DNA from: Candidatus Deferrimicrobiaceae bacterium
Lineage (GTDB): Bacteria; Desulfobacterota; Deferrimicrobia; Deferrimicrobiales; Deferrimicrobiaceae
DNA length: 64,000 bases
Assembly: GCA_963725055.1 (NCBI GenBank)
Contig: CAVRXE010000005.1
Span: 2,973 to 66,972 of the forward strand
Direction of reading: 5' to 3'
The notes beneath the pieces were generated by a model. It ran no database searches and was not told the origin of the DNA. It saw only the letters and a program-made list of their open reading frames with translations. The translations under genes and the position numbers were made by a program. Each line of letters starts with the position of its first letter. The stretch's first letter is position 1. Positions 8,497-29,585 of the stretch are shown in pieces.

Positions 8497-10550
8497 ATGG
8501 GTGGAACATGGTCCCCGAAGGAATCGGTTATCTTCTTCCAGGAGAAGTTGTTTCCGTATGCACCGGTCGTCCTCTTCATCCCCGCGACTCTCTTCCTTTC
8601 TTATCGATGGAACCCCCAGTTCTCCCACAACCTGGCCGAGACGTTCAGCATCATCGTCGCCTGCGGCGTCTTCACACTGATGTGGAACGCCCAGAAGTTC
8701 ATCGACAACCATTACTTCATCTTCCTCGGCATCGCCTATCTGTTCGTCGGCGCCATCGACTCTATCCACTTGCTCACGTTCGGTGGCGTGATTCATCCCG
8801 GAAAAGTCCACCCAATCTTACGCGCTCTGGTTCTCCGCCCGATTCGTCCAGAGCGTCGCGCTGATTTTCGCCCCGATCTTCGTTTCGCGCAGGCTCTACC
8901 CGTGGCTCGTTTTCCTCGGATTTGCGGTCCTCTCCGCCGTGCTTGTCACAATCACATTGGCTGGCGCTTTCCCCATCTTCTTCATCCCCGGGGTGGGATT
9001 TACGCCCGCCGAGAATCTTTGGGATTTCATCATCGTGGGGATACAACTTCTCTCGATCGGCGCCATCTGGCGGGTCCGCAAGCATTTCGACGGGGAGGTG
9101 TTTCAGAAACTGGTCGTCTCCATTATCTTCTCGATCGCCGCCGTGCTGGTGGACGATCTCAGCCCGGAAAAGTACATGTATGGCAGCCTCTTCGGCCATT
9201 ACCTGAATGTCCTCTCGTACTACCTGGTCTACAAGGCGATCATCGTGATCGGCCTCAACCGCCCCTACGATCTCATCTTCCGGGAGATGAAAAGGAACGA
9301 AGAGGAGATCCGCGTCGCGCGGGATGAGCTGGATGCCCGGGTGACCGAGCGGACGGAAGAGCTCCGGGATGTGAACGTCCGGCTCGAGCGGGAGCTCTCC
9401 GAGCGTATCCGGATGGAGGAGGAGCGCGGGGTGACGAGCCATCGGCTTCGGGAGAGCGAGGCCCGGTTCCGGTCCCTGGTCGAGAACGAGGCCGTCGGCA
9501 CCATGATCGTCCAGGAGGGCCGCGTCGCCTTCCGGAATCCGGAACTGGAGCGTCTTATGGGTCCGATCCCGGAGGGGTTCGATTTTCGACGGCTGGGACC
9601 TCCCCACCCGGAGGACGTCCCGAAGTTCGAGCGGCTTTGCGGTACGGTGCGGGAGGGGGAGCCGTTCCGGCAGGGGATGGAGCTCCGGTTCTCCGTGCCC
9701 GACGTCGAGACGGGGGAGAAGGCGCTTTGCTGCGTGCAATGCCGGACCGTTCCGATCGACTTCCAGGGAAAGCCCGCTGTTCTCGTCAACATGGTCGACA
9801 TCACGCGCATGAAAGACCTCGAGCAGATCGTGATGGCACGGGAGAAGCTCGCCTCCCTCGGCCAGCTGGCCGCCGGGATCGCCCACGAGATACGGAACCC
9901 CCTCTCCGGGATCAATATCAACATCTCCACACTGGACCTGCTCTGCCGGCGGGCGGAAGGGATGGACCCGGAAGAGAAGGAGAAGCTCGCACGCGGTCGT
10001 CGCCCAGGCGAAGGCCGCTTCCGACAAGATCGGCGCGGTCGTCAAACGGATCATGGATTACTCCAAGCCGATCCCTCCCCGGATGGACCGGATCGACGTG
10101 GTCCGGGTCGTCCGAGAGGTCCTCGTCCTTTCGGCGGCCAGCATCCGCAATGGCGATGTCAAGCTCCTGCAGGACCTTTCGCCGGAGCCACTGTACTGCC
10201 GGGCGGACGCCACGCTCCTGCAGCAGGCGATCCTCAATCTCATCACGAACGCACTCCAGGCGATGGAAACCGTCGACCGGGAGAAATTCATCAGTGTGGG
10301 CGTGGCGCAGGAGGGGCAGCAGGCGGTGATCCGGGTCGTCGACAACGGCCCGGGCGTGGCCGAGGACCTTCTCGGCAAGATCTTCGACCCTTTCTACACG
10401 ACGCGGAAGGACGGCCACGGGATCGGCCTCTCGTTCAGCCACCGCGTCATCTCCAAACACAACGGCCGGCTTTCCGCCGGCGCCGCCGAAGGGGGAGGTG
10501 CGGTGTTCCGCATCGAGCTTCCCCTGTGGCGGGACAGGAGGACCGCATGA
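8497..10550 (+). CDS. Sensor histidine kinase (MASE3-like membrane domain, PAS, HisKA, HATPase_c), broken by two 1-nt frame shifts as sequenced
   Basis: The membrane domain runs in frame 1 to ..LTFGGVIHPG and continues in frame 2 (..KSTQSYALWFSARFVQSVALIFAPIF..) after the A4 run at 8802-8805. Coiled coil, PAS and H-box HEIRNPLSGI follow. The frame changes again near 9989 (..EKEKL|HAVVAQAKAASDKIGAVVKRIMDYSKP..). N/G boxes: NLITNALQAM, DNGPGV, GHGIGLS. Confidence 0.8.
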
Positions 10551-11929
10551 CCGCCTGGAGCGTCTTCATCGTGGACGACGAGGAGACCATCCGGGAGGGG
10601 ATCCGGATCGCCCTCGAGCCGCGCTACCGGGTCCGTGCGTTCCCGGACGCGGAGTCCGCCGTCGAGGTCGTCACGGAGGATCCGCCGGACCTCGTTCTCA
10701 TGGACATCGGGCTGCCCGGGATGGGCGGCGTCGAAGGGATCCGGGCGATCAAGGCCCTTCGTCCCGAGACGCTGTTCGTCGTGATCACCGCATACGAGGA
10801 TGTCCAGACGGTCGTCAGCGCGATGAAGGGCGGGGCATTCGATTACCTGGTGAAGCCGTTGCACATGGAGACCCTGGAAACGAGCATCGGGAACGCGCTG
10901 GAGACGGTTCGCCTCCACAAGGAGGTTCGGGAGCTGCAGGAGCGGTTTCTTCGGGAGAAGGTGCCGCTGTTCGTCGGGGAAAGCCACGCGATCCGCGAGG
11001 TCATGGAGTTCGTGGAGTCGGTCGCGAAAAGCCCCGATACGCCCATACTCATCCTCGGCCCGACGGGAACGGGGAAGGAGCTCATCGCGGCCGCGATCCA
11101 CTACCGGAGCCCCAACTTCCGCGGCCCCCTTGTGAGCATCAATTGCGCGGCCATCCCGAAGGAGCTGCTCGAAAGCGAGCTGTTCGGGTACGAGAAGGGC
11201 GCCTTCACCGGCGCGAGCCTCGCCGGGAAGAAGGGGCTGGTGGAGGAGGCATCCGGCGGAACGCTCTTCCTGGACGAGGTGGCGGACCTGAGCCCGGAGG
11301 CCCAGGCGAAACTGCTGCGGTTTCTCGAGGTCGGGGAGTTCCATCGCGTCGGGGGGACGCGCCTCTTGCGTGCGTCCGCGAGGGTCGTATCCGCAACCAA
11401 CAAGGAGCTGGAAAGTCTCGTCGGGAAGGGGCTCTTCCGCGAAGATCTCTACTACCGGCTCGCGGTCGTACGGGTGACGGTGCCCACCCTTTCCGACCGG
11501 CGCGACGACATCCTTCCGATCGCACGCTACTTCCTCGCGGAGTTCTCACGGAAGTTCGGCCGGGTCCTGAGCGGGTTTTCCCCGGAAGCGGAAGGGGCCC
11601 TCCTTGCGTGTCCATGGGAGGGGAACATCCGTGAACTCCGCAACGTCGTGGAGCGGGCGGTCCTCTCGGGAAAGGGGAAGGAAGTCGCCGCCGCCGATTT
11701 GCGGCTGGCCCCGGGGGGGGCCGTCCCCCGCATTCCGCCCCCCGCCGGCCCCTCGGGTCCTCCCCTCACGCCGGAGGGGATCGACCTGCCCGCGGTGCAG
11801 GAGTCGATCGAGAAGCGCTATATCGAAGCGGCCCTTCGACTGGCGGCGGGGAAAGAGACGAAGGCGTCGCAGCTCCTCGGCGTCAACTACCACACCTTCC
11901 GCTACCGAAGGAGGAAGCTCGGGCTGTAG
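10547..11929 (+). CDS. Sigma54-dependent response regulator (NtrC family)
   Basis: Receiver (VFIVDDEE.., LVLMDIGLPGMGG), AAA+ domain with Walker A GPTGTGKE and the sigma54-contact loop GAFTGA, and a C-terminal Fis-type HTH (ASQLLGVNYHTFRYRRRKLGL). ATGA overlap with the kinase stop. Confidence 0.9.
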   Translation: MTAWSVFIVDDEETIREGIRIALEPRYRVRAFPDAESAVEVVTEDPPDLVLMDIGLPGMGGVEGIRAIKALRPETLFVVITAYEDVQTVVSAMKGGAFDYLVKPLHMETLETSIGNALETVRLHKEVRELQERFLREKVPLFVGESHAIREVMEFVESVAKSPDTPILILGPTGTGKELIAAAIHYRSPNFRGPLVSINCAAIPKELLESELFGYEKGAFTGASLAGKKGLVEEASGGTLFLDEVADLSPEAQAKLLRFLEVGEFHRVGGTRLLRASARVVSATNKELESLVGKGLFREDLYYRLAVVRVTVPTLSDRRDDILPIARYFLAEFSRKFGRVLSGFSPEAEGALLACPWEGNIRELRNVVERAVLSGKGKEVAAADLRLAPGGAVPRIPPPAGPSGPPLTPEGIDLPAVQESIEKRYIEAALRLAAGKETKASQLLGVNYHTFRYRRRKLGL

Positions 11930-12126
11930 CTCTCCTCCCCGGACGACCGGTGGAAGTTGCATTTTTCCTATTTTTCTACGGGAACTTTTCGATTCTCCCG
12001 TCTCCCCCCGCCGGTTTTCCGCACGCCACGTGAACGTATCTATATTGAAAATAAAAGGAATCCGTGTTTGGTCCGTTCCGGCATACGTCGTGCTATCTGG
12101 AATGGACATCGCACGAAAGGATACCG

Positions 12127-12549
12127 ATGGAAACGAACCAGGCGCCCTCGGGGGCGAGGGTTGCCATCATCGAGGACGATGTCCCTCTGCGCGAAGCGCT
12201 GGTTCTTTTCCTGCGGGTGAAGGGGTGGTCGGTGGATTCCTTCGGGAGTGGCGAGGAGTCGGCCGGGGTCGTGAATTGGGGAGAGTACACGGTGGTGGTC
12301 TGCGATTTCTCCCTTCCCCGAGAGGACGGCCTCTCCGTGCTTCGCCGCGTCAGGGAGGCTTCGGACAAGGTCGTTACGGTGTTGATCACCACCTACCCTG
12401 GTGGCGACCTTTCGGCGCAAGTCGAGTCGGCGGGCGTCGACCGGGTCCTGTTCAAGCCGTTTTCCACGATGGAGTTGGTGAAATCGATCGGGGCCCTGAC
12501 CGAAAATCGATCCAGCCGAGGTTCGACGGCGCCCGCATCGCCTCAATGA
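12127..12549 (+). CDS. Single-domain response regulator (CheY-like receiver)
   Basis: ..RVAIIEDDVPLREAL.., phospho-acceptor context VVVCDFSLPREDG, ..VTVLITTY.., ..VLFKPF... Preceded by a ~200-nt lower-GC intergenic region. Confidence 0.8.
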   Translation: METNQAPSGARVAIIEDDVPLREALVLFLRVKGWSVDSFGSGEESAGVVNWGEYTVVVCDFSLPREDGLSVLRRVREASDKVVTVLITTYPGGDLSAQVESAGVDRVLFKPFSTMELVKSIGALTENRSSRGSTAPASPQ

Positions 12550-12693
12550 CCCCGGGGCGATGGATCCCTGCCGCGTCCGTTGCGGCGGATCCCCTCATCG
12601 GCATTCTTGGGGTTGTCCGCTCCTCTTCCCCCTGCCCCGCCGTGGAGGCTCTTCGGGATCCTGCAGGTCGTTGACCTGAGGTAAGATACCGTC

Positions 12694-14396
12694 ATGGGAG
12701 CTACGATCCTCAGTCGAAGGCGGTTCAACGAGGCGCTGCTGGCAACGCTCCCGGTTTCTCCCTCCGAGATGGAATCGTTGAACGGCCTGGCCGCGGAGGA
12801 AGGAGCGGGGTTTCCGCGTCTCCTCGTCTCCCGGGGGCTCCTTTCCCCGGAGGGGTTGCTCCGCGCCTACCAGGCGCTCTGCGGGATCCCCGCGTTCCGG
12901 CGCAATCCCGACGCGGACACCTCCGCCCCCTCGGACGTCCTTCCGCTTTCTTTCCTGCGCGCCAAGCTTCTGATCCCCGTGTCCGCCGCCGACGGCACGC
13001 TCACCGTGGCGATGGCCGATCCCCTCGACGCGAACGCAAGGGAAGCGGTGGCCAAGGCCACCGGGAAGCGCGTGGAGGTGATGGCCGGGACCGAGGAGGA
13101 GATCCGCGAGGCGATCGAGAGGGAGTACGGCGAGTCCGGCTCCTCGATGGAGAGCCTCGTCGAGCAGGTCGGGGACGAGACGCCGGAAGTCGCGGGCGAC
13201 GAGCGGGTGGAGCAGTTGATCGGCGTCGCCTCCGAGGCGCCCATCATCCGGCTGGTCAACTTCGTCATGGCGCGCGCGATCGAGCGCGGCGCGAGCGACA
13301 TCCACTTCGAGCCGTACGAGAAGGCACTGCGCGTCCGGTACCGGATCGACGGGATTCTCGAGGATGTGGAGTCCCCCCCCGGCGGCTCCAGACGGCGATC
13401 CTCTCCCGGATCAAGATCATGGCGCGGCTGAACATCGCCGAGAGCCGGCTTCCTCAAGATGGCCGTGTGAAGCTCCGGATCGGCGGGAAGGAGATCGATT
13501 TCCGGGTCTCGACGATCCCCACGCTGCACGGCGAGAGCGTTGTGATCCGCATCCTCGACCAGGCGACCGTTCCTTTGAACATGGAGACGCTGGGCTTCTT
13601 TCCCGACACGCTGTCGGTCTTCCGCCCGATGGTCTCCGCCCCGTACGGGATGATCCTGGTCACCGGCCCCACCGGCAGCGGGAAGACGACCACGCTCTAC
13701 GCCGCCCTGCGGGAGATCACCTCTCCGGCGCGGAAGATCATCACCATCGAGGACCCGGTGGAGTACCAGATCCCCGGCGTCATCCAGATCCAGGTGAAGC
13801 CGCAGATCGGCCTGACGTTCGCCTCGGGTCTTCGCTCCATCGTCCGGCAGGACCCCGACGTGATCCTCGTGGGGGAGATCCGCGACCGCGAGACCGCGGA
13901 GATCGCGATCCACTCCGCGCTCACGGGGCACATGGTGCTGTCCACCCTCCATACCAACGACGCCCCCGGGTCGGTCACGCGCCTGCTCGAAATGGGGGTC
14001 GAAGAGTACCTGCTGCCGTCCGTCCTCATCGGCGTGCTCGCGCAGCGGCTGGTTCGCACGATCTGCGGGGGTTGCGCCGCCCCGCGCGAGATTTCCCCGG
14101 CGTTGCGCGAGGATCTGCTGCGCGAGGCCGGCTTCGTCCCGGAGGGGAACCTGCGGATGGGGCGTGGCTGCGACGCTTGCGGAGGTACGGGGTTCCGGGG
14201 GCGATCGGGAATCTTCGAGCTGCTCCCCGTCACTGACGGGATCAGGGAGTTGGTCCTCGCACGGGCGGACGCCGGCGCGCTCCGGACGAAAGCGGCGGCC
14301 GAGGGGATGCGGCCCCTGCGGGAGGACGGCTGGGAGAAGGTTCGGCAGGGAATCACGACGATCGAGGAAGTCCTGCGGGTCACACGAGCAGGGTAA
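12694..14396 (+). CDS. gspE: Type II secretion ATPase GspE, one frame break as sequenced
   Basis: N-terminal GspE_N-type domain, then ..APIIRLVN..ERGASDIHFEP.., Walker A GPTGSGKTT, ..ILVGEIRD.., ..GHMVLSTLHTND.., and a tetra-Cys C-terminal motif. The frame changes inside the C8 run at 13373-13380 (..ILEDVESPP|RRLQTAILSRIKIMARLNIAESRLPQDGR..). Confidence 0.9.
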
Positions 14397-14405: not shown

Positions 14406-15632
14406 ATGGCGGTCTTCGGCTACAGAGTCACCGACGGGTCCGGCCGGGTCTCCGAGGGTGTAATCGAGGCGGCGGAGGAAGCGGCGGCCCGGGACCGGCT
14501 GCGGGAGAGGAACCTCACTCCGATCCGGGTGTGGGCAGCCTCGGCGGCGTCGGAGCGGAAAGGGGGCGAGGCCCCGCCGCGCGGGGCCGGTGCGCGCGGG
14601 GCGCGGAAGGATCTGCTTCCGTTCCTGCAGGGGTTCCGCACCCTCCTCACTGCCGGCGTTCCGATGGACCGGGCCCTCGAAATGATGGCCGACCTGTTCC
14701 GCGGCGGGCCGATGGGACCCGTGGCAGTTTCCCTCCTCCGGGAGGTGCGCGCCGGATCTTCCCTTTCGGACGCGATGCGCAAGGCTCCCGGGGCTCCGTT
14801 CAACCGCTTTCTCATCCAGATGGTCCATGCGGGGCAGGCGACCGGCCGGCTCGAGGAGGCACTCGACCAGGCGTACCGCTTCCTCGAACGGTCCAGGGAT
14901 TTTCGCTCCAACCTCCTCGGATCGCTCCTCTACCCGATCATCCTCCTCGCCGCCTCGATCGTATCGGTGATCCTTCTCGTCGTCTTCGTCGTCCCGCGCT
15001 TCGCCGGGGTGTTCGCCTCCTCGGGGGTGCTGCTTCCCCTCCCCACCCGTGTCCTCCTCGGCATCAGCACGTTTCTCGAGGGGAATTTTCTCTACCTCCT
15101 CGCCGCCGGGGGCGCTCTCTTCGCGTTCGCCCGCGCGGCGTTGTCGCGGCCGGAGGTCCGCCGGGACTGGGACCGGGGGAAGATGACGTGGCCCTTCGTC
15201 GGGGAGACGGTGACGGCGATGGAGACATCCCGGGTGATGCGGTCCCTCTCGTCGCTCCTGTCCGGCGGCGTGCCGATCCTGCACGCCTTCGTCATCGCCC
15301 GGGAGGTGAGCGGGAACACGGCGATCCGGGAAGGGATGGAGGCGGCGCGGCTGAAGGTCCAGGGGGGAGCCAAGGTGGCGCGCGCTCTCGGCGAGACGAC
15401 ACCGTTCCCGGAACTTGCGCTGCAGATGATCGCCGTAGGGGAGGAGACGGGACGGCTCGAGGAGATGCTCGCCTCCGTGGCCGACACGTATGAGGACCGG
15501 GCGCGCCGGAGCCTGAAGAACTTTCTCACGATCCTCGAGCCCGTCGTGATCCTCGGGATGGGGTTGCTGGTCGGGTTCATCGCCTTCTCGATGTTCCTCG
15601 CGATCTTCCGCCTCAACGAGGTCCCGTTCTGA
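14406..15632 (+). CDS. gspF: Type II secretion inner-membrane platform protein GspF
   Basis: 408 aa with two T2SSF repeats and three hydrophobic segments. The N-terminus (MAVFGYRVTDGSGRVSEGVIEA..) is typical of GspF/PilC. Confidence 0.85.
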   Translation: MAVFGYRVTDGSGRVSEGVIEAAEEAAARDRLRERNLTPIRVWAASAASERKGGEAPPRGAGARGARKDLLPFLQGFRTLLTAGVPMDRALEMMADLFRGGPMGPVAVSLLREVRAGSSLSDAMRKAPGAPFNRFLIQMVHAGQATGRLEEALDQAYRFLERSRDFRSNLLGSLLYPIILLAASIVSVILLVVFVVPRFAGVFASSGVLLPLPTRVLLGISTFLEGNFLYLLAAGGALFAFARAALSRPEVRRDWDRGKMTWPFVGETVTAMETSRVMRSLSSLLSGGVPILHAFVIAREVSGNTAIREGMEAARLKVQGGAKVARALGETTPFPELALQMIAVGEETGRLEEMLASVADTYEDRARRSLKNFLTILEPVVILGMGLLVGFIAFSMFLAIFRLNEVPF

Positions 15633-16067
15633 TGCGCAGCGAAGGCTTCACCTTCGTGGAGTTGATCGTCGTGCTGGCGATTCTCGCCGGGCTCGCGGCG
15701 CTGGTCGCGCCCTCCTTCTCCCGAACCGTCGCGTCGGCGCGGCTGCGGACCGCCGCCTCCGACGTGCGATCGACCTTCGCCCGGGCGCGCGCGCTCGCCG
15801 TCGCTTCCGCGCGGGAGCGCTCCGCCGTCTTCGACCTTTCGCGGGGCGAATTCGGCGTCGACAACGAGGCGGTGCGGCTCCTGCCGGAGACGATCCGCCT
15901 CGGGGCCGTTCTCCCGGGGGGACCGCCTGGACCGGGGAAGCGTCCGGGTCCGTTTCTTCCCCGACGGCGGCGGCGAGGAGGCGGAGATTTCCGTGACGGC
16001 GCAGGATGGCGGGGCGTTGCGCGTGACGGTGGATCCGCTCACAGGGTTGTCGGAGGCGGGAACGTGA
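15632..16067 (+). CDS. gspH: Minor pseudopilin GspH-like, one frame break as sequenced
   Basis: Prepilin-type N-terminus MRSEGFTFVELIVVLAIL. After the G6 run at 15916-15921 the protein continues in another frame (DRLDRGSVRVRFFPDGGGEEAEISVTAQDGGALRVTVDPLTGLSEAGT*). That frame ends in a TGA overlapping the next GTG start. Confidence 0.75.
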
Positions 16068-18145: not shown

Positions 18146-18159
18146 AGCGGTATCGCACC

Positions 18160-23423: not shown

Positions 23424-23438
23424 GACATCCCGCCGGGG

Positions 23439-23946
23439 TCATATCCAGCGGGAGAAGTCTCCGGGGAGCGTGTGCGACTTGTAACACGATGACGCCCTCG
23501 CGGCCGATGAGCACGTACGTGGGAATCCCGACCACCCCGTACGCCCGGGCCGCCTGTCCCTGTTCGTCGAGGAGAACCGGGTACCGGATCGCGCGCGACT
23601 TGACCGCCTGCTCGACCTTTTCCCGGGACTCCCTGAAGTCGAGCCCGAAGACCAGCAATTTTTCCTTGAGCGGTCCCGTGACCAGCGCGTTGATCTCCGG
23701 GATGGCCGCCTTGCACTCCGGGCACCACGTCGCCCAGAAGACGAGGAGGACCGGGGTCTTCCCGAGGAACGGTCCGAGCGTCACCTGCCGGCCATCGAGA
23801 TCCGGCAGGGTGAAATCCGCGGGCCGGTCGCTTCCCGCACCGGATGCCACGGCCCCGCCGGCTGACAGAAGGGCAGAATCGGGTCCCGCGAGAGCGACCC
23901 CGCACAGAAGGAACAGCATCGCGGCGACGGCGAACCGGCACGGCAT
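23439..23946 (-). CDS. TlpA/ResA-like periplasmic thiol:disulfide oxidoreductase, probable 1-nt frame break near the 3' end
   Basis: RBS GGAGGGGA. Signal/anchor MPCRFAVAAMLFLLCGVALAG, thioredoxin motif FWATWCPECK, and ..GVVGIPTYVLIGREGVIV... As sequenced the ORF runs on to 23281, overlapping gspD. Removing one base at ~23483-23485 gives ..VIVYKSHTLPGDFSRWI* with the stop at 23439-23441. Confidence 0.75.
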
Positions 23947-23996
23947 CGTCCCCTCCTTCCACCGTTCGATGGGTCCCGACCCGGGAGCGTTTCGGG

Positions 23997-24707
23997 TCAT
24001 ATCAGCCGCTTCCCCGCCTCGAGGAGAAGGTATTCGCCCGCCAGCAGGAGCACGACGCCGAACGCCCGCTGGACCTTCACCGTCCACCCCCCCCCCTTCG
24101 GGAGGTTCGAGACCAATCCCGCGAACGTGCCGAGTGCCACGACGGGAAGCCCCATCCCCAGCGCGAAGGTGAACAGGAGGGTCGCCCCGAAGAAGGGGCG
24201 CCCGCTCGCCCCGACATAGAGGAGCAGTCCCCCGAGCACCGGCGCCGTGCACGGCCCGACGACCAGGCCCGACAGCAGGCCCACGACGAAGGCGCCCCCC
24301 GCCCCCCGTGCCTTCCCCGGTGGCCCTCCGGCGCCGGCGAAGATCGCCAGTGCCGGGAGATGGAAGACGTCGAACAGGGAAAGGGCGAAGAGGATGCAGA
24401 CGTTCCCGAGGATCAGGTACGAGAGGGGGTGCGCCGTCGCCTCGCCGAACACGCTGCCGGAAAGCGCGGCCGCCATCCCGAGGGCCGCGTACGTCATCGC
24501 CATCCCGAGAGCGTAGGACGCGGATACGAGGAACGCCTGCCGGCGGGACCCCCCGGTGCGGCTTCCGATGTACCCCACCGTCACCGGGAGGATCGGGTAG
24601 ACGCACGGGGTGAAACTTGCGAGGATCCCTCCGAGAAAAGCGATGGCGTACGCAAGCGGGGAGCCCGCCTGGAGGTGCGCCTGGAACGAGGAGAAGAGCA
24701 TCTGCAT
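23997..24707 (-). CDS. ccdA: Cytochrome c biogenesis thiol-transfer membrane protein CcdA (DsbD transmembrane-domain family)
   Basis: MQMLFSSFQAHL.., two conserved Cys-Pro motifs (..ASFTPCVYPILP.., ..VVGPCTAPVLG..) and 6 hydrophobic helices. Confidence 0.85.
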   Translation of the reverse strand: MQMLFSSFQAHLQAGSPLAYAIAFLGGILASFTPCVYPILPVTVGYIGSRTGGSRRQAFLVSASYALGMAMTYAALGMAAALSGSVFGEATAHPLSYLILGNVCILFALSLFDVFHLPALAIFAGAGGPPGKARGAGGAFVVGLLSGLVVGPCTAPVLGGLLLYVGASGRPFFGATLLFTFALGMGLPVVALGTFAGLVSNLPKGGGWTVKVQRAFGVVLLLAGEYLLLEAGKRLI

Positions 24708-24772
24708 CGGGGCGGCGCTTTCCGTCCCCGGAGAGGGACCGGGAATCGATGGAATCAGTTGTCCCGGACAGT

Positions 24773-25555
24773 CTACCGGGCGCCGTTCAGGAGCGAGAGC
24801 AGCGCCTCCGCCTCCATGTAGCCGCTGACCATGCGCCCGTTGGGGAGGATCATGGTCGGCGTCCCCTCGATCTTCAGCCGGTCGGCGAGCTTCATCGTCT
24901 CGTTCACCGCGTCGCTCTCGCACGACGGGGCCGGGAGCTCCTTCCCGGCGTAGGCCTCGTCGAGCATCTTCTCCGATTTCGAGCAGACGACGGCGAGGCA
25001 ATTCCGGTACGTGGCCTTGTCGTTCCTGTTTCGCGGATACGGCATCACGAGGAACGCAACGTCCTTATCCTTCGCCGCCGCCTTTTTGATCTCCCCGTGC
25101 AGCTTCACGCAGTACGGGCAGGTGGGGTCGGTGAGGACGATGACCGCCTTCTTCGCCGCCTTGCTCCCGATCCGGACGGCGTCCTTGACCGGGATGGAAG
25201 CGACGTCCACGCGGTTCAGGTCCTGGTACCGCAGCCCGGTGAGGTTCTCCATGTTCGCCAGGCGGATGAACTGTCCGTTGAAGAGGTACTTCAGGGAATA
25301 GTCGAGGTAGATCGGATACGTTTTTCCGCTTCGCGCGACGTCCACCTCCCATACCCCGGGGAACGGCCCCGGCACGACGGCGACGACGTTGTCCACGACC
25401 TTCCCGAGCAGCTTCCCCGCCTCCTCTTTCGAGAGTTTGTGGCACTCCGTACAGTCCCCGGCGATCCCGGCCTCTTTCCGGAACGCAGCCGCGGGTGTGG
25501 AAAGGAACAGGGCGAGAAACGAGGCGAGGACGCAGGCGGTCAGGAACGGTTTCAT
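24773..25555 (-). CDS. DsbC/DsbG-like thioredoxin-fold protein with an N-terminal CxxCH motif
   Basis: RBS AAGGAGA. Signal peptide MKPFLTACVLASFLALFLSTPAAA, then ..GDCTECHKLSKEEAGKLL... The thioredoxin fold carries ..VLTDPTCPYCVKLH.. and ..IEGTPTMILPNGRMVSGY... Confidence 0.75.
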   Translation of the reverse strand: MKPFLTACVLASFLALFLSTPAAAFRKEAGIAGDCTECHKLSKEEAGKLLGKVVDNVVAVVPGPFPGVWEVDVARSGKTYPIYLDYSLKYLFNGQFIRLANMENLTGLRYQDLNRVDVASIPVKDAVRIGSKAAKKAVIVLTDPTCPYCVKLHGEIKKAAAKDKDVAFLVMPYPRNRNDKATYRNCLAVVCSKSEKMLDEAYAGKELPAPSCESDAVNETMKLADRLKIEGTPTMILPNGRMVSGYMEAEALLSLLNGAR

Positions 25556-25789
25556 CCGGAGTCTCCTTGTGGGGGGCATGGAAACAATTGTACACCGACT
25601 ACCGCGGCATTTCGCCGAATTCGAGGATGCGTTGCGTGGATCCACCTGCTTCGCCGCCCTTCCGTTCGGCCCTGCCTCCTGCCGCTTTCCCCATTGTCGG
25701 TGCCGGCTGTGGAAGATTGTTGTTGATAGGATCGGTTATTTTTGGGAAAATCTTTGTCATTCCAAATTCCGTTTTGTTTGGGGGTACGA

Positions 25790-27109
25790 ATGGGACGTCC
25801 GACGACCGTGGCCTCTCCCGGGAAACGAGTGCTCCCTGCCGTTGTTGCCGTCACGCTGTTCCTTCCCCTCCTGTTCGCGGGCACGGCCCTGGCGGCCGAC
25901 CTTTCCCTCTCCTCGAAGACCTACGGCCTGGCATACGAGCGGGAGCAGGCCGGGGGTCAGAAGGACCGGTACGTCCCACTGTACGAGTACCTGTCGGCGG
26001 ACGCGGCGAACCTGGGGGGAAAGCCCCTCTCCTTCCACTTCTACGGCTGGGGGCGGGTCGACCTCGACACGGATAGCGGCTCCGGGAGTACCTCCGGGGA
26101 GGTCGGGAGCATCTACCTGGAGTATCTCCATCCGGAGGGGAACGCCCAGGCGAAGCTGGGCCGGTTCTTCCTCACGGAGGGGGCGGCGATGGAGATCATC
26201 GACGGCGCGTTCGTCAAGGCGACGACCCCCATCGGTCTTGGGGTTTCCCTCTACGGCGGCGTCCCGGTGGAGTACTCCATCCTTGGCAACACGAGCGGGG
26301 GAGATTCCCTCTTCGGCGGCCGGGTATTCTTCGTCCGCCCGGGGTTCGTGGAGATCGGGGCATCGTACCTGAAGGAGAACGGGACGTTCCAGGAGGGGAA
26401 GGACCGTGAGCTGGTCGGCGGCGACCTGTGGCTGCGCGTCGCCCCGTCGGTGGAATTGACCGGCCAGGCGGCGTACAACCGGTCGGTCAGCGAGATGGCC
26501 TCGCAGCGTTACGCGGTCCGGATCGTCCCCGGCTCTACCCTCGACATCTCCGCGGGCTACGAGTCGTACACATACAAAGGGCTCTTCCAACCCGCGCTGA
26601 ACCCGGCGTTCGTATTCCCCTCGGTGAACCCCGACGACAAGGTCGATGTGATCTTCGGCATCGTGGACTGGACGTTCGTCCCCGGCTGGACGCTTGAGGT
26701 GGCGGGGAAGAACATCCGGCACGACAAGTCCGACCCCGGGGACGCCAACCGCGGGGAGGTCGGGCTGCGCTACTCCTACAACGACAAGAAGGACACGGCG
26801 GGGCTCTCCGCCGCCTTCGTCTCCGCCGACCGGGAGGAGAACGAGTACCAGGAGTACCGCGGCTTCGCCACCTACTCGCCGGGGAAGACCCGGCTGACCC
26901 TCGATGCCCTGACCCAGCAGTACAAGAAGGAGATCAACGGGAAGAAGGACCAGGTCCAGGTGGTCGCCACGGCGGGGTACCAGCTCCTCGCGGCGCTGCA
27001 GCTCTCCGGCAACCTGATGTACACGCAAAGCCCCAGCTTCCAGGAAGACTGGGCGGGGTTGGTCCGGGTGACCTACGATTTCGCGATGAGCACGGGAGGG
27101 AAGAAATGA
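25790..27109 (+). CDS. Large outer-membrane beta-barrel (porin-like) protein, first gene of the cytochrome trio
   Basis: Signal peptide ..VVAVTLFLPLLFAGTALA|ADL. The ~440-aa mature part consists of short alternating strands rich in G/Y/W/F, with aromatic beta-signal ..GLVRVTYDF near the end. The stop overlaps the next start (ATGA). An alternative TTG start lies at 25742. Confidence 0.75.
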   Translation: MGRPTTVASPGKRVLPAVVAVTLFLPLLFAGTALAADLSLSSKTYGLAYEREQAGGQKDRYVPLYEYLSADAANLGGKPLSFHFYGWGRVDLDTDSGSGSTSGEVGSIYLEYLHPEGNAQAKLGRFFLTEGAAMEIIDGAFVKATTPIGLGVSLYGGVPVEYSILGNTSGGDSLFGGRVFFVRPGFVEIGASYLKENGTFQEGKDRELVGGDLWLRVAPSVELTGQAAYNRSVSEMASQRYAVRIVPGSTLDISAGYESYTYKGLFQPALNPAFVFPSVNPDDKVDVIFGIVDWTFVPGWTLEVAGKNIRHDKSDPGDANRGEVGLRYSYNDKKDTAGLSAAFVSADREENEYQEYRGFATYSPGKTRLTLDALTQQYKKEINGKKDQVQVVATAGYQLLAALQLSGNLMYTQSPSFQEDWAGLVRVTYDFAMSTGGKK

Positions 27110-27576
27110 TGCGCCGCTCTCACGCCGTGAAGATCCTCGGGGCGGCCCTGCTCGCCCTGATGTTCGGCTGCTCCGCCGTCTCGAAGACCCCGTCGGTTCC
27201 CCCGAAACACCCGGAGGATCTGCCGCAGGGGCGGGTCGACTGCCTCGAGTGCCACAAGGACGTGTCCGCCGGGGCGCTGAAGCCGTACGCGAATTTCCGG
27301 CACTCCGTGGTCTTCATCAACTCCCACGGCACGTACGCCCGCCAGGGGCAGAACCTGTGCTCCTCCTGCCACAAGCCGGAGTTCTGCCAGACGTGCCACG
27401 CCGGGAAGGAGGAGCTGAAGCCGAACACGAAGATGGGCGACCGGCCGGACCGGATGGCGCCGCACCGGGGGGATTACATCGCCACCCACCGGATCGACGG
27501 GCGCCTCGACCCCGGGTCTTGCTACCGGTGCCACGGGAACAAGAGCGACAGCCGGTGCAAGCAGTGCCACAAGTAG
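27106..27576 (+). CDS. Small pentahaem c-type cytochrome (signal peptide/lipobox-like LMFGC)
   Basis: 156 aa with five CxxCH motifs: CLECH, CSSCH, CQTCH, CYRCH, CKQCH. Hydrophobic signal sequence MMRRSHAVKILGAALLALMFGCS. Confidence 0.85.
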   Translation: MMRRSHAVKILGAALLALMFGCSAVSKTPSVPPKHPEDLPQGRVDCLECHKDVSAGALKPYANFRHSVVFINSHGTYARQGQNLCSSCHKPEFCQTCHAGKEELKPNTKMGDRPDRMAPHRGDYIATHRIDGRLDPGSCYRCHGNKSDSRCKQCHK

Positions 27577-27589
27577 GACGGGAGGAGAC

Positions 27590-29507
27590 ATGACCACGAA
27601 GATGCGAACCCTCCGGGACTTCCGGAATCCGATCGGTTGCCTGATCCTTCTGGCTGCGTTCGCCGTGGCCGCCGGCTGCTCCACAGCCGAATCCCCCAGC
27701 GGGTCCGCCACGAACATGAACCACGTCCTCCCCTCCGGCAGTTCCGTGGCGGGGTGGCTGGTCCTCCCCTCCGGCGGGACGCACGCGAGCACCGCCACGC
27801 TGGACTACATCGACGGCGGCGGGAGCAGCGGTTGCACGCAGTGCCACGGATCGGATCTCTCGGGCGGGATCTCCAAGGTATCCTGCTTCGGTAACCCGGC
27901 CGGGTGCCACCACACCCCGGTCGCGAACTGGGCTACCCCCGCGGTGCACGGGGCGACCGCAAAGAAGGCCCCGGGCAGCTCCGGGTTCGCCTCCTGCCAG
28001 ATCTGTCACGGGAACAACTTCTCCGGCGGCGGGGCGAAGGTCTCCTGCACAAACAATCCCAACGCCACGTGTCACGGCCCCGCTGTCGCATCGCCGCACC
28101 CGCCCAAGCCATGGCGTGCCTCCGCTGGCACCACGTTCACCCACACGACCACGAACCCGGCGAACGCCCCGGTCTGTTACGGGTGCCATGCCGACTCCCC
28201 GGCGGGGAACCTGAACAACCCGCACCGTCCGCCGACGCCCGCGGCGGCGGGCACTGCCCCCGGTTGCTTCAACGGGACGATGTGCCACGAGCCGGCCGGG
28301 GGCTCCGCATCCGGTAGGGATTCCCGCCTGGGGGACGCCCCCGCCGGCGGCCCAGCCCCACGGGAACGACGCGAAGGCGACCCCGGGCTCGACCACCGGG
28401 TTCGCCTATTGCCAGGACTGCCACGGGACCGGGACGACGTCTCCGGCGAACTTCGGAGGCGGCTCGTCCGGGGTGTCCTGCTACACCTGCCATGGGCCGA
28501 ACGCACCGCATGCCCCCGCGCCGTGGCGCACCTCGGCCGGAAGCACTACAGCCACACCAGCACCGACGCGGCGAACGCCCCGGTCTGTCAGCAGTGCCAC
28601 TTCGTTGGGTCACCGAACAACCCGGCGGGCCATCCGCCCACCCCCGCTCCGGCGGGGACCGCGCCCGATTGCTTCAACAGCACGCTGTGCCACGGGAGCG
28701 TCGCCCCGCACAAGGTGCCGTTCAACGACAATACCCACTTCGACGTGGTCACCGCCACGTTTGAGGCAGCTTGCAGCGCCTGCCACGACGTCTCCGCGCC
28801 GTCGACGAAGTCCGGGCCTGTTTGCCGGACGTGTCACGTCGCGGCCTCGCCGCTGACGTCCCTGAACTGCACCTCCTGCCACGCCAGCCCGCCGTCGGGG
28901 GCGGCGTATCCGAACATCGCCGGAGCGCATTCGACCCACATCGCACTGGACAACACGGGGAGCCCGGTTTCCTGCGACACCTGCCACAACGGGCTGGGAC
29001 CCAGCCTCCTGAACCTGAACCATTACAACCGCGCCAAATCCCGGGTGGCCCCCGGGGACGCGGCGTTCCTGGCGACATACTTCGCGAAAACCGGGGCGTC
29101 GTCCTTCGATAACGGCGCAGCGCTTAGTTGTTCGAACGTGAGCTGCCACGGCGGGCAGGCCACGCCGAACTGGCAGGCCGGCACGCTCAATGTGAACTCC
29201 CAGTGCACGAATTGCCACGTTTTCGGGCCGTCTCTTGGAAACCCTCAATACAACAGCCCGTACTCGGGAGAGCACAACATAAACACACCGACCTTCCCGG
29301 GTGCGCATCAGACCTGCCACGAACTGCCACAACACCACCACGCTCGCGGTGAACCATTTCACCACGCTCGCCGATAATACGATCTCGCCGACCGTTGCGT
29401 CTGCGACCATCGGCGGCGCGGGGACGGCCATTATCACGTGGACGCCCGGAACAGGCACCTCGGGTACGTGCAATGCAGCCTGCCACCCAGGGGACCGGAC
29501 CTGGTAG
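27590..29507 (+). CDS. Large multihaem lipoprotein c-type cytochrome (9 CxxCH as sequenced, 12 after repair of 3 frame breaks)
   Basis: GGAGG RBS. Lipobox ..LLAAFAVAAGC. CxxCH motifs in the open frame: CTQCH, CQICH, CYGCH, CQQCH, CSACH, CRTCH, CTSCH, CDTCH, CTNCH. C-x4-7-CH motifs are also present (CSNVSCH, CFNGTMCH, CFNSTLCH). Frame changes lie at 28297-28301, ~28539-28543 and ~29318. The final part is ORF 29301-29507. Confidence 0.8.
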
Positions 29508-29540
29508 GCAAGCGGGGCCAGTATCCGGGGTAACGTCGCG

Positions 29541-29585
29541 GCCCCGGGGGACCGAGGTTCCCCGGGGCTTTCTCTTTTTATTTCG
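29541..29585 (+). terminator. Rho-independent terminator closing the cytochrome operon
   Basis: Perfect 9-bp stem GCCCCGGGG/CCCCGGGGC (29541-29549 / 29560-29568) with a 10-nt loop, followed by TTTCTCTTTTTATTT. Confidence 0.85.

What the first reader, a model, noticed from the sequence alone, without database searches (positions are those of the whole stretch)
8497..29585. Contiguous regulator - T2SS - thiol-redox - conduit arrangement (possible self-contained EET island)
Seen: within 21 kb, four blocks lie side by side. (i) A MASE3-PAS histidine kinase, a sigma54 NtrC-type activator and a CheY. (ii) A complete-looking T2SS basal body, minor pseudopilins and a secretin. (iii) Three convergent genes for periplasmic thiol chemistry and cytochrome c maturation support: TlpA-like, CcdA, and DsbC-like with CxxCH. 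(iv) The barrel plus multihaem cytochrome trio. Established knowledge: in Shewanella the T2SS is needed to place outer-membrane decahaem cytochromes on the cell surface. In Geobacter an atypical T2SS is linked to reduction of insoluble electron acceptors. CcdA/TlpA-type proteins keep apocytochrome CxxCH thiols reduced. Inference: the four blocks may form one functional unit for export, maturation and regulation of a surface cytochrome. I do not know of that combination described as a unit.
Basis: inference. Interest (0 to 1): 0.65.

Follow-up and report, generated by a model that had tools for sequence, protein, structure and literature searches.

The report
T2SS beside cytochrome conduit, separable modules
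In an uncultured iron-reducer lineage (Deferrimicrobiaceae), a type II secretion system with its own sigma-54 switch often sits beside an outer-membrane cytochrome "wire", but the two parts separate in close relatives, so this is a lineage-specific, optional pairing and not one fixed island.

Summary
All four blocks are present at about 8497-29507. They are a MASE3 kinase/NtrC/CheY set, a T2SS (GspE F H I J K L M C-like D), TlpA-like/CcdA/haem-tagged DsbC-like genes, and a roughly 22-strand barrel with a 5-haem and a roughly 13-haem lipoprotein cytochrome. Many genes are broken by homopolymer indels, which are assembly noise; intact orthologues exist.

Comparative genomics splits the region in two:
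- **Stable core:** the DsbC-like gene plus the barrel and two cytochromes. The three-gene conduit is ExtBCD-like and widespread.
- **Accessory segment:** 16.4 kb (8372-24762: regulators, T2SS, TlpA, CcdA), which starts right after a tRNA-Pro.

Four closely related species join the window's left flank directly to the DsbC-like gene, with no T2SS. One relative carries the T2SS elsewhere. Eleven Deferrimicrobiaceae loci keep the T2SS next to the conduit, in several arrangements. None of 81 distant conduit loci has T2SS genes nearby.

A conserved sigma-54 promoter lies before cheY-gspE, not before gspE itself or the barrel. The barrel has a conserved sigma-70-like promoter. gspG and gspO are absent.

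The proposed function (T2SS places the lipoprotein cytochromes on the cell surface) is plausible but inferred.

The parts
8238..8314 (+). tRNA-Pro(CGG). It marks the left edge of the 16.4-kb presence/absence segment.
   Evidence: ARAGORN. The blastn breakpoints of L012, L020, L021 and L028 fall at 8315-8372.
8330..8357 (+). Intrinsic-terminator-like hairpin with a T-run, just after the tRNA.
   Evidence: sequence.
8497..10550 (+). Sensor histidine kinase (MASE3, weak PAS in the orthologue, HisKA, HATPase_c). Split over three reading frames by indels.
   Evidence: Pfam; frame plot; tblastn to the intact 868-aa L006 orthologue.
10556..11929 (+). NtrC-type sigma-54 activator (REC, Sigma54_activat, AAA_lid_14, HTH_8).
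   Evidence: Pfam; 79% identical to L006 NtrC1.
12079..12094 (+). Sigma-54-type promoter CGGCAT-N5-GTGCT (GG-N10-GC), about 32 nt before the cheY ATG.
   Evidence: GG and GC are invariant, with the same spacing, in all 4 loci that carry block (i) (alignment A4). Single exact match in the window.
12126..12549 (+). Single-domain response regulator (CheY-like).
   Evidence: Pfam Response_reg; translation.
12694..14396 (+). GspE ATPase with an MshEN N-terminal domain. Frameshifted at a C8 run (13373-13380).
   Evidence: Pfam. The L006 orthologue scores 647.9 bits on TIGR02533, cut-off 630.25. Homopolymer context.
14406..15632 (+). GspF inner-membrane platform protein.
   Evidence: Pfam T2SSF, two stretches.
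15632..17102 (+). Three minor pseudopilins: GspH-like (about 15632-16067), GspI-like (about 16064-16465) and GspJ-like (16452-17102).
   Evidence: N_methyl motifs; NCBIfam XpsH/GspH, GspI and T2SS protein J hits for the orthologues; prepilin motifs at 15644, 16091 and 16482.
17237..18145 (+). GspK.
   Evidence: Pfam T2SSK_1st.
18109..19605 (+). GspL-like protein (PilM/PilN-type).
   Evidence: Pfam PilN; NCBIfam GspL/PilM hits below the cut-off.
19625..20260 (+). GspM (subtype b).
   Evidence: Pfam T2SSM_b; tblastn.
20257..21006 (+). GspC-like protein (weak match).
   Evidence: 50% identical to the L006 249-aa protein. That protein hits GspC_delta at E=3e-6, below the cut-off.
21039..23423 (+). 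Secretin GspD (N0, Secretin_N, Secretin). Split over three frames. Has a Pro-rich tandem repeat at 21244-21402.
   Evidence: Pfam; intact 748-809-aa orthologues; repeat.
23434..23946 (-). TlpA/ResA-like periplasmic thioredoxin. The CxxC is WCPEC in the orthologue.
   Evidence: Pfam AhpC-TSA/Redoxin/Thioredoxin; tblastn; motif.
23997..24707 (-). CcdA (DsbD_TM) thiol-reductant transporter.
   Evidence: Pfam DsbD_TM, E=1e-44; translation.
24773..25555 (-). Secreted DsbC-like protein with an N-terminal CTECH haem-c motif and a CPYC active site. Transcribed divergently from the barrel.
   Evidence: Pfam; NCBIfam DsbC below the cut-off; translation. Found next to the barrel wherever the upstream side is visible among loci with barrel identity of 64% or more.
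25723..25751 (+). Sigma-70-like promoter TTGATA-17-GAAAAT with TG, in front of the barrel operon.
   Evidence: conserved across Deferrimicrobiaceae loci in alignment A2.
25790..27109 (+). Outer-membrane beta-barrel of the conduit (439 aa, about 22 strands).
   Evidence: No Pfam or PDB sequence match. AF2 model from an 89-sequence alignment: pLDDT 84.2, pTM 0.76. Foldseek matches usher and porin barrels at E=1e-10.
27106..27576 (+). Pentahaem lipoprotein cytochrome (156 aa, lipobox LMFGC, 5 CxxCH).
   Evidence: Translation; 42-53% identical homologues lie next to the barrel in nearly all of the 81 distant loci where the downstream side is visible.
27590..29507 (+). Large multihaem lipoprotein cytochrome (lipobox AAGC). 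At least 11 CxxCH are visible across two frames. The intact L004 orthologue has 13 CxxCH plus 1 CxxxxCH. Frameshifted near 28200-28500 and near 29320.
   Evidence: The L004 orthologue matches TIGR01904 just above its cut-off (27.6 vs 27).

Best explanation
The 21-kb stretch is two separable modules that are often, but not always, neighbours in Deferrimicrobiaceae (candidate phylum MBNT15 / Desulfobacterota_E).

**Module A, the stable core (24773 to about 29507).** This is an ExtBCD-type outer-membrane electron conduit: a roughly 22-strand barrel, a pentahaem lipoprotein and a roughly 13-haem lipoprotein. It runs from its own sigma-70-like promoter. A haem-tagged DsbC-like periplasmic thiol isomerase is transcribed divergently from it.

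**Module B, the accessory segment (8372-24762, directly after tRNA-Pro).**
- A MASE3 kinase/NtrC pair acts on a sigma-54 promoter in front of cheY-gspEFHIJKLM-gspC-like-gspD.
- Convergent tlpA-like and ccdA genes follow.

**Inferred mechanism.**
- When an unknown membrane signal activates the kinase, NtrC switches on the T2SS.
- The T2SS needs gspG and gspO from elsewhere in the genome.
- It moves the folded, haem-loaded lipoprotein cytochromes of the neighbouring conduit to the outer face of the outer membrane, as in Shewanella. In some relatives it probably also moves other substrates, such as multicopper oxidases.
- CcdA and TlpA supply reducing power to keep apocytochrome CxxCH cysteines reduced.
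- The DsbC-like protein corrects wrong disulfides.

**Shown:** gene content, modularity, the promoter positions, and the lineage-restricted synteny.

**Inferred:** the substrate relation between the T2SS and the cytochromes, the roles of the thiol proteins, and what the kinase senses.
For: - **Gene identities:**
- **Modularity:** L012, L020, L021 and L028 join window positions up to about 8315-8372 directly to about 24762-24789, at 90-94% flank identity. L005 has the T2SS alone.
- **Recurrent adjacency in variant forms:**
  - Window, L002, L004, L013 and L029: T2SS-TlpA-CcdA-DsbC-conduit.
  - L001/L011: the same without TlpA/CcdA.
  - L022, L026 and L031: a second DsbC-like gene instead of TlpA/CcdA.
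  - L003: a second kinase/NtrC/CheY set plus two SCO1 genes inserted before the DsbC-like gene.
- **Regulation:** the sigma-54 promoter is conserved in 4 of 4 loci that carry block (i). No terminator-like site was found between cheY and gspE.
- **Substrate candidates:** lipoboxes on both cytochromes.
- **Published background:** Shewanella T2SS dependence of MtrC/OmcA, and Geobacter Pul-T2SS secretion of the multicopper oxidase OmpB (references listed in PMC4282303; PMC3543383).
- **In situ transcription:** sediment and groundwater metatranscriptome contigs cover both the T2SS and the conduit at 85% likeness or more.
- **A parallel:** a Geobacteraceae member of the conduit family lies beside ResB/CcsB cytochrome-c maturation genes.
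Against: - No experiment links this T2SS to these cytochromes.
- The conduit persists without an adjacent T2SS in at least 8 related loci, and in 81 of 81 distant family loci. An adjacent T2SS is therefore not required. Whether those genomes carry a T2SS elsewhere is unknown.
- T2SS-minus loci are interleaved with T2SS-plus loci on the conduit tree, which points to several separations.
- The conduit and the T2SS have different promoter types.
- The depth ratio of T2SS to conduit varied about 0.05-2.2 across four metatranscriptomes. This is a poor measure, taken from mixed strains.
- Other neighbours of the T2SS suggest a broader substrate range: multicopper oxidases in L029 and L030, polysaccharide genes in L005.
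Confidence: 0.55

Rival explanations
1. All four blocks are one self-contained, co-inherited island dedicated to export, maturation and regulation of a surface cytochrome.
For: - All four blocks lie contiguous in the window and in L031. L031 has a second DsbC-like gene instead of TlpA/CcdA.
- L006 and L032 show blocks (i), (ii) and TlpA/CcdA followed by a second regulator set, as in L003, where the conduit follows.
Against: - Four close relatives lack exactly blocks (i), (ii) and TlpA/CcdA but keep the conduit.
- Block (i) is missing upstream of the T2SS in L005, L007, L029 and L030.
- gspG and gspO are absent.
- No sigma-54 promoter lies before the conduit in the window.
- The conduit family elsewhere never has a T2SS nearby.
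Confidence: 0.1
2. Inherited neighbourhood without a dedicated function. This is the lineage's general T2SS, and it sat next to the conduit in an ancestor. The adjacency is phylogenetic inertia that is being eroded.
For: - Adjacency is confined to one family.
- Repeated separations appear on the conduit tree.
- The T2SS also lies beside multicopper oxidases or polysaccharide genes.
- The two modules have separate promoters.
- gspG and gspO lie elsewhere, as is typical of a housekeeping system completed by shared genes.
Against: - The right-hand neighbour of the secretin stays thiol-redox genes and/or the conduit in most contexts, while the left-hand neighbours differ: tRNA-Pro, DUF6599, ETF genes, a NrfA-like gene, Cu-oxidases.
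- The adjacency survives the insertion of a 6-kb regulator/SCO1 block and the replacement of TlpA/CcdA.
- The only T2SS found away from these genes (L005) has a GspE with an internal deletion and no Walker A motif.
Confidence: 0.25
3. The 16.4-kb segment is a horizontally acquired genomic island that integrated at tRNA-Pro.
For: - It starts directly after tRNA-Pro(CGG) and a terminator.
- It is a presence/absence polymorphism at one chromosomal site, and other cargo occupies the same spot. L020 has an ORF there that reads, by eye, like an acyl-CoA synthetase.
- GC drops to 61% at 8-10 kb.
Against: - No integrase, no att-like direct repeat of the tRNA 3' end, and no mobility genes were found.
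- T2SS DNA identity to relatives (71-89%) is in the range of the neighbouring genes.
- On the conduit tree, T2SS-plus is the commoner and more widely spread state, which fits ancestral presence with repeated deletions.
Confidence: 0.1
4. The thiol block serves copper-protein assembly rather than cytochrome c maturation, through a CcdA to TlpA to SCO1 route. Multicopper oxidases would then be the T2SS's main cargo. This is not exclusive of the best explanation.
For: - Two SCO1/SenC genes lie between the second regulator set and the DsbC-like gene in L003 and L025. One SCO1 gene is visible at the end of L032.
- Multicopper oxidase genes flank the T2SS in L029 (same strand, directly upstream) and in L030.
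- The Geobacter Pul T2SS secretes the multicopper oxidase OmpB (PMC3543383).
- From my own knowledge of Bradyrhizobium, TlpA reduces ScoI.
Against: - The window has no SCO1 and no multicopper oxidase gene.
- CcdA plus a ResA/TlpA-like thioredoxin is the standard reducing arm of System II cytochrome c maturation.
- Two members of the conduit family, L114 (a Geobacteraceae MAG) and L065, lie beside ResB/CcsB.
Confidence: 0.15

Closest known systems
Geobacter sulfurreducens ExtABCD conduit (extBCD part)
   Same: - Same gene order and part list as described in PMC6148476: an outer-membrane integral beta-sheet protein, then a pentahaem lipoprotein, then a large (12-haem) lipoprotein cytochrome.
- extBCD clusters without extA nearby are reported there too.
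- The barrel family found here includes proteins from Geobacteraceae and Desulfuromonadales MAGs. One such locus (L114) has the same barrel, 5-haem lipoprotein and 15-haem lipoprotein order.
   Different: - Direct sequence homology to GSU2644-GSU2642 could not be tested, because no reference sequence was at hand.
- The barrel model has about 22 strands, against 18 predicted for ExtB.
- There is no ExtA-like periplasmic multihaem gene in the cluster.
- Here a haem-tagged DsbC-like gene is a constant divergent neighbour, and a T2SS is a frequent one.
Shewanella oneidensis MtrCAB plus the Gsp T2SS
   Same: A barrel with multihaem cytochromes. The outer-surface lipoprotein cytochromes MtrC and OmcA need the T2SS to reach the surface (Shi et al. 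2008, cited in PMC4282303). This is the mechanism inferred here.
   Different: - There is no meaningful sequence relation. The MtrB/PioB model scores 15.3 bits against a cut-off of 240, and there is no PDB sequence match.
- There is no MtrA-like periplasmic decahaem gene.
- From my own knowledge, not tested here: in Shewanella the gsp and mtr loci are not adjacent.
Geobacter atypical (Pul) T2SS that secretes the multicopper oxidase OmpB
   Same: A T2SS in a metal reducer that is linked to reduction of insoluble acceptors. Multicopper oxidase genes lie beside the Deferrimicrobiaceae T2SS in L029 and L030 (PMC3543383).
   Different: - The Geobacter pul genes lie near cell-division and DNA-uptake genes, not near conduits.
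- The Geobacter system has pseudopilins PulG, OxpG and TklG. Here no GspG-type major pseudopilin is present.
- No sequence comparison was made.
System II cytochrome c maturation, reducing arm (CcdA plus ResA/TlpA-type thioredoxin)
   Same: CcdA (DsbD_TM, E=1e-44) sits next to a secreted thioredoxin-fold protein with a CxxC motif.
   Different: ResB and CcsA are not in the window. The pair is dispensable at this locus: it is absent or replaced in 5 related loci.
NtrB/NtrC-type sigma-54 two-component systems
   Same: A kinase plus a REC-AAA+(sigma-54)-HTH_8 activator, with a GG-N10-GC promoter directly downstream.
   Different: The sensor is a MASE3 membrane domain with an unknown signal. The controlled operon starts with a CheY-like gene followed by a T2SS.

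Membership tests
Type II secretion system (Gsp) | GspE-type ATPase | tested here: met
   The L006 orthologue (77-89% identical to the window protein) scores 647.9 bits on TIGR02533 (cut-off 630.25). It falls below the PilB cut-off. The window copy has the MshEN and T2SSE domains.
Type II secretion system (Gsp) | GspF platform protein, and a GspD secretin with an N0 domain | tested here: met
   Pfam T2SSF, and type_II_gspD_N0 + Secretin_N + Secretin. Intact secretins of 748-809 aa occur in relatives.
Type II secretion system (Gsp) | Minor pseudopilins GspH, I, J and K, plus GspL, M and C | tested here: met
   - T2SSK_1st, T2SSM_b, PilN and N_methyl are above their Pfam cut-offs.
- NCBIfam GspH, GspI (42.8 vs 44.35), GspJ, GspL and GspC_delta hits are all below their cut-offs, so those subunit names are tentative.
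Type II secretion system (Gsp) | Major pseudopilin GspG encoded with the system | tested here: not met
   Only three prepilin motifs occur in the 64-kb window, all in the H-, I- and J-like genes. The first pseudopilin matches XpsH/GspH over its full length, and GspG only at the N-terminal helix. The same gene set is found in all related loci.
Type II secretion system (Gsp) | Prepilin peptidase GspO | tested here: not met
   No such gene appears among the annotated ORFs of the island or among the flanking ORFs that were scanned. It must be encoded elsewhere.
Porin-cytochrome conduit, ExtBCD type | Integral outer-membrane beta-barrel | tested here: met
   AF2 model with pLDDT 84.2 and about 22 strands after a signal peptide. 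Foldseek gives probability 1.00 to PapC/FimD usher pores and to AlgE and Occ porins.
Porin-cytochrome conduit, ExtBCD type | Pentahaem lipoprotein, followed by a large multihaem lipoprotein | tested here: met
   - 156 aa, lipobox LMFGC, 5 CxxCH.
- Large cytochrome with lipobox AAGC. The intact orthologue has 13 CxxCH plus 1 CxxxxCH.
Porin-cytochrome conduit, ExtBCD type | Periplasmic multihaem partner (ExtA-like) in the cluster | tested here: not met
   The only other haem protein nearby is the one-haem DsbC-like protein. Multihaem c7-type genes belong to the ACIII-like cluster 10 kb away.
Porin-cytochrome conduit, ExtBCD type | Sequence homology to G. sulfurreducens ExtB, ExtC and ExtD | not testable with these tools
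   No reference sequences were at hand. The indirect evidence is that the family includes Geobacteraceae and Desulfuromonadales MAG proteins, and that L114 has the same architecture.
MtrAB/PioAB conduit family | MtrB/PioB-family barrel | tested here: not met
   TIGR03509 scores 15.3 bits against a cut-off of 240. A profile search of the PDB found nothing at E up to 10.
System II cytochrome c maturation (reducing arm) | CcdA plus a secreted CxxC thioredoxin | tested here: met
   DsbD_TM at E=1e-44. AhpC-TSA/Redoxin/Thioredoxin fold with WCPEC in the orthologue.
System II cytochrome c maturation (reducing arm) | ResB/CcsA synthase nearby | tested here: not met
   Not among the ORFs of the window that were annotated. 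It is present beside the conduit family only in L114 and L065.
Sigma-54-dependent two-component regulation | Enhancer-binding protein plus a GG-N10-GC promoter at the regulated operon | tested here: met
   - Sigma54_activat at E=4e-62.
- The promoter at 12079-12094 is conserved in window, L006, L031 and L032.
- Not met at 12694 or 25790: no match to the stricter TGGCAC-N5-TTGCW consensus with up to 2 mismatches lies near either site.
tRNA-integrated genomic island | tRNA-adjacent, with an integrase and flanking direct repeats | tested here: not met
   The tRNA adjacency is met. No integrase and no att-like repeat were found.

The most novel reading that the evidence does not exclude
In Deferrimicrobiaceae, a T2SS has become genetically coupled to an ExtBCD-like conduit and acts as its dedicated surface-display machine. 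It is switched on by a MASE3 kinase/NtrC sigma-54 circuit that senses electron-acceptor or envelope redox state. CcdA/TlpA and a haem-tagged DsbC-like protein act as a local quality-control line for apocytochromes. This would be the first natural genetic linkage of a T2SS with an extracellular-electron-transfer conduit. It would also be evidence outside Shewanella that lipoprotein cytochromes are T2SS cargo.
Probability: 0.3. Interest if true: 0.65.

Novelty: new variant of a known kind. Interest (0 to 1): 0.45.

Why it matters
How multihaem lipoprotein cytochromes cross the outer membrane is established only for Shewanella. For Geobacter-type (Ext/Omc) conduits it is open. A lineage in which a T2SS repeatedly sits beside an ExtBCD-like conduit offers three things:
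- A natural hint at the export route.
- A small, testable gene set for heterologous expression.
- Natural "knock-out" relatives (conduit without the adjacent T2SS) for comparative work.

It also adds a conduit to the predicted iron-reduction machinery of MBNT15/Deferrimicrobium, which is abundant in soils and sediments. The paper that described that lineage does not mention a porin-type conduit or a type II secretion system in the text searched (PMC9386147).

The result also shows that the arrangement is optional and confined to one lineage. It should not be used as a general marker of an "EET island".

Tried and rejected
No match to TGGCAC-N5-TTGCW with up to 2 mismatches lies near either site. 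The conserved site is at 12079-12094, before cheY. A sigma-54-like element (AGGCAC-N5-TTTGC) lies about 170 nt before the barrel in L009, L021 and L025, with a one-base-short version in L002. It does not occur in the window, and it does not track the presence of a regulator set.
2. **Pseudogenisation.** Rejected. The two frameshift junctions with a clear context sit at homopolymers, and orthologues are intact.
3. **Genomic island with an integrase or att sites.** None found.
4. **First AF2 model from a shallow, 14-sequence alignment.** Useless (pLDDT 29). Repeated with 89 diverse sequences.
5. **PDB sequence searches for the barrel and the large cytochrome.** Nothing meaningful.
6. **Naming distant barrel homologues through cluster look-up.** Only "hypothetical protein".
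7. **First metagenome scan with a 40-sequence alignment.** Repeated with 8 sequences.
8. **Co-expression.** Only assembled metatranscriptome contigs were available, so only presence of transcripts could be shown, not correlation.
9. **Literature.** Searches for a described T2SS-conduit gene linkage found none in the searchable library.
10. **MshEN c-di-GMP motif in GspE.** No full match to the motif, which I wrote from memory. Left open.

Full report
**What is in the window**

The window is 61-70% GC, so raw ORF lists are unreliable. A GC3 frame plot, Pfam, NCBIfam and tblastn against intact orthologues give this gene order:

| Coordinates | Strand | Feature |
|---|---|---|
| 8238-8314 | + | tRNA-Pro(CGG) |
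| 8330-8357 | + | terminator-like hairpin |
| 8497-10550 | + | MASE3 / HisKA / HATPase kinase |
| ~10556-11929 | + | REC / sigma-54 AAA+ / HTH_8 activator |
| ~12126-12549 | + | CheY |
| 12694-14396 | + | GspE |
| 14406-15632 | + | GspF |
| 15632-17102 | + | GspH-, GspI- and GspJ-like pseudopilins |
| 17237-18145 | + | GspK |
| 18109-19605 | + | GspL |
| 19625-20260 | + | GspM |
| 20257-21006 | + | GspC-like |
| 21039-23423 | + | secretin |
| ~23434-23946 | - | TlpA-like |
| 23997-24707 | - | CcdA |
| 24773-25555 | - | DsbC-like, with CTECH and CPYC |
| 25790-27109 | + | barrel |
| 27106-27576 | + | 156-aa pentahaem lipoprotein |
| 27590-~29507 | + | large multihaem lipoprotein |

Several genes are split between reading frames: the kinase, GspE, GspH, GspJ, the secretin and the large cytochrome. 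The breaks with a clear sequence context fall in homopolymers (C8 at 13373, G6 at 15916). Relatives from other assemblies have intact genes. This is long-read indel noise, not gene decay.

**Who carries it**

Barrel homologues (466 clusters, the top 120 all at least 75% identical) and GspL homologues carry names such as Candidatus Deferrimicrobium and Deferrimicrobiaceae. That lineage (MBNT15 / Desulfobacterota_E) was predicted to reduce iron through multihaem cytochromes. Term searches of the describing paper found no mention of a porin-type conduit or a type II secretion system (PMC9386147).

**The conduit**

- The barrel has no Pfam or PDB sequence match.
- An AF2 model built on 89 diverse homologues is confident (pLDDT 84.2, pTM 0.76). 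It shows about 22 strands after a signal peptide. It matches usher pores and AlgE/Occ porins in Foldseek.
- The 156-aa protein has a lipobox and 5 CxxCH.
- The large protein has a lipobox. In the intact L004 orthologue it has 13 CxxCH plus one CxxxxCH, and a TIGR01904 domain just above its cut-off.
- The order and part list match the description of extBCD in Geobacter: an outer-membrane protein, a 5-haem lipoprotein and a 12-haem lipoprotein, sometimes without extA nearby (PMC6148476).
- The barrel family is large: 452 representatives at the 50% clustering level. It includes Geobacteraceae and Desulfuromonadales MAG proteins.
- One Geobacteraceae locus (L114) has barrel, 5-haem lipoprotein and 15-haem lipoprotein, followed by ResB/CcsB.
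- Direct homology to GSU2644-2642 could not be tested.

**The T2SS**

GspE passes the NCBIfam GspE equivalog cut-off and not the PilB one. GspF, GspK, GspM(b) and the secretin domains are above Pfam thresholds. H, I, J, L and C are recognisable but below the NCBIfam cut-offs. There is no GspG-type major pseudopilin and no prepilin peptidase in the island. The window has only three prepilin motifs. The island cannot build a T2SS alone.

**Synteny test inside the family**

I anchored on the barrel, using 20 GTDB species representatives and four contig look-ups. I also anchored on GspL. All loci were annotated with one reference protein set.

The T2SS is adjacent to the conduit in the window, L001/L011, L002, L003, L004, L010, L013, L022, L026, L029 and L031. 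The arrangement varies:
- TlpA and CcdA are present in most.
- They are missing in L001/L011.
- A second DsbC-like gene replaces them in L022, L026 and L031.
- In L003 a second PAS-kinase/NtrC/CheY set and two SCO1 genes are inserted between CcdA and the DsbC-like gene.
- The same insert precedes the conduit in L025 and begins in L006, L007 and L032.

Against a fixed unit:
- L012, L020, L021 and L028 have flanks 90-94% identical to window 1100-8372. These flanks join directly to window positions about 24762-24789, at the 3' end of the DsbC-like gene. They lack exactly the regulators, the T2SS, TlpA and CcdA.
- L021 has only 68 bp between the two flanks. L020 has an ORF there that reads, by eye, like an acyl-CoA synthetase.
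- L016, L023, L024 and L027 also show no T2SS upstream.
- L005 has a T2SS 78-89% identical in DNA to the window's. It lies between exosortase and alkaline-phosphatase genes on one side and glycoside-hydrolase, Wzy and polysaccharide genes on the other. It has no regulators, no thiol genes and no conduit. Its GspE has an in-frame internal deletion without a Walker A motif.
- Block (i) is upstream of the T2SS in 4 of 8 T2SS-anchored contexts: the window, L006, L031 and L032.
- On a neighbour-joining tree of barrel plus pentahaem DNA, T2SS-minus loci are interleaved with T2SS-plus loci. This implies several independent separations. The caveat is that this is a gene tree of the conduit itself.

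**Synteny test outside the family**

A metagenome scan with distant barrel homologues gave 79 loci. Adding the two Geobacteraceae loci gives 81 loci and 936 kb. Nearly all keep the barrel, a pentahaem homologue (42-53% identical) and a large cytochrome. None has any hit to GspE, F, D, K, L or M, TlpA, CcdA or SCO1 at E up to 1e-3. Twenty-seven of them show the full 10 kb upstream. NtrC- or kinase-like genes are near about a dozen. The T2SS adjacency therefore belongs to Deferrimicrobiaceae, not to the conduit family.

**Regulation**

- No match to TGGCAC-N5-TTGCW with up to 2 mismatches lies before 12694 or 25790.
- Between ntrC and cheY there is a CGGCAY-N5-nTGCY element with invariant GG and GC. 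It sits at the same place in all four loci that carry block (i). In the window it is at 12079-12094.
- No terminator-like site lies between cheY and gspE.
- The likely circuit is therefore kinase to NtrC to sigma-54 promoter to cheY-gsp operon.
- The barrel operon has a TTGATA-17-GAAAAT sigma-70-like promoter with TG. It is conserved across the family's loci.

**Expression**

Sediment and groundwater metatranscriptome contigs at 85% likeness or more cover both the T2SS genes and the conduit. The ratio of depths ranges from about 0.05 to 2.2 across four runs. Contig depth from mixed strains cannot test co-expression. It shows only that both are transcribed in nature.

**Interpretation**

The data fit two modules.
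- The conduit with its DsbC-like neighbour is the stable core at a conserved chromosomal place. Its right flank (EamA, aminotransferase, metallophosphoesterase, then an ACIII-like complex) is the same in the related loci whose contigs reach that far.
- The regulator/T2SS/TlpA/CcdA segment is accessory. It begins right after a tRNA gene but has no integrase or att repeats.

The repeated retention of the T2SS next to the thiol genes and the conduit is notable. It holds through insertions, replacements and changing left-hand neighbours. Both cytochromes also carry lipoprotein signals. Together these make a functional link plausible: the T2SS puts the lipoprotein cytochromes on the cell surface, as shown for MtrC and OmcA in Shewanella. 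The link is inferred, optional and not exclusive. Multicopper oxidase genes flank the T2SS in L029 and L030, which recalls OmpB secretion by the Geobacter Pul system.

**Novelty**

I found no paper in the searchable library that describes a T2SS genetically linked to a porin-cytochrome conduit. The parts are known kinds. The arrangement is a new, lineage-restricted variant.

Noticed in passing
window 35078-41472 (-): An ACIII-like quinol-oxidising complex lies about 5.5 kb to the right of the conduit. It comprises ActD, NrfD/ActC, a molybdopterin/4Fe-4S ActB-like protein of 928 aa, a c7-type multihaem cytochrome and a mono-haem cytochrome c. Genes of the same complex follow the conduit in L002 and L004, as far as those loci extend. 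It is a candidate inner-membrane feed for the conduit.
   Followed up: partly
window 8238-8357: tRNA-Pro(CGG) and a strong terminator-like hairpin sit exactly at the left breakpoint of the 16.4-kb presence/absence segment. Relatives carry different cargo at this spot: an ORF in L020 that reads, by eye, like an acyl-CoA synthetase, an unknown 240-aa ORF in L028, and nothing in L021.
   Followed up: yes
L005 5525-6358: The only T2SS found away from the thiol and conduit genes has a 277-aa GspE with an in-frame internal deletion (about residues 109-400 missing) and no Walker A motif. It may be a decaying copy, or an assembly artefact.
   Followed up: partly
L029 1-2606; L030 20970-21539: Multicopper oxidase genes lie directly next to the Deferrimicrobiaceae T2SS in two relatives. 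This recalls the T2SS-secreted multicopper oxidase OmpB of Geobacter.
   Followed up: no
L003 3342-9057; L025 1-6676; L006 16542-21315; L007 16767-20872; L030 16733-20804; L032 15281-19989: A second regulator set often sits between CcdA and the DsbC-like gene: a multi-PAS kinase, an NtrC-type activator and one or two CheY-like genes. In L003 and L025 it is followed by two SCO1/SenC genes, and in L032 one SCO1 is visible at the end of the contig. The window lacks this block.
   Followed up: partly
window 21244-21402: Five tandem copies of a 31-32-nt unit that encodes a proline-rich linker at the N-terminus of the secretin. In a noisy assembly the copy number is uncertain.
   Followed up: no
window 24762-28700 versus 1100-8372 and 29662-33954: Between the window and L012, L020, L021 and L028, the DsbC-like and conduit genes are less conserved in DNA (77-86%) than the housekeeping flanks (89-94%). 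This suggests faster evolution or exchange of the surface-exposed parts, as reported for Geobacter Ext clusters.
   Followed up: no
L114 14973-17113; L065 14398-16538: In a Geobacteraceae MAG (L114) and a related metagenome contig (L065), the same conduit family is followed by ResB and CcsB (System II cytochrome c synthase). This is a different way of placing maturation genes beside the conduit.
   Followed up: partly
L009 431; L021 8801; L025 9831; L002 about 9840: A sigma-54-like element (AGGCAC-N5-TTTGC) lies about 170 nt upstream of the barrel in some relatives. The L002 copy is one base short. The window has none, and its presence does not track the presence of an adjacent NtrC gene.
   Followed up: partly
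window 12694-13140 (GspE N-terminus): GspE carries an MshEN domain, which is a c-di-GMP-binding module in MshE-type ATPases. A simple regular expression for the binding motif, written from memory, did not match fully.
   Followed up: partly
window 8001-10000: GC drops to 61% over the MASE3 kinase gene, against 65-70% in the 2-kb windows on either side. The kinase is also the least conserved protein of the segment (47-58% identical to L006, against 77-89% for GspE).
   Followed up: no
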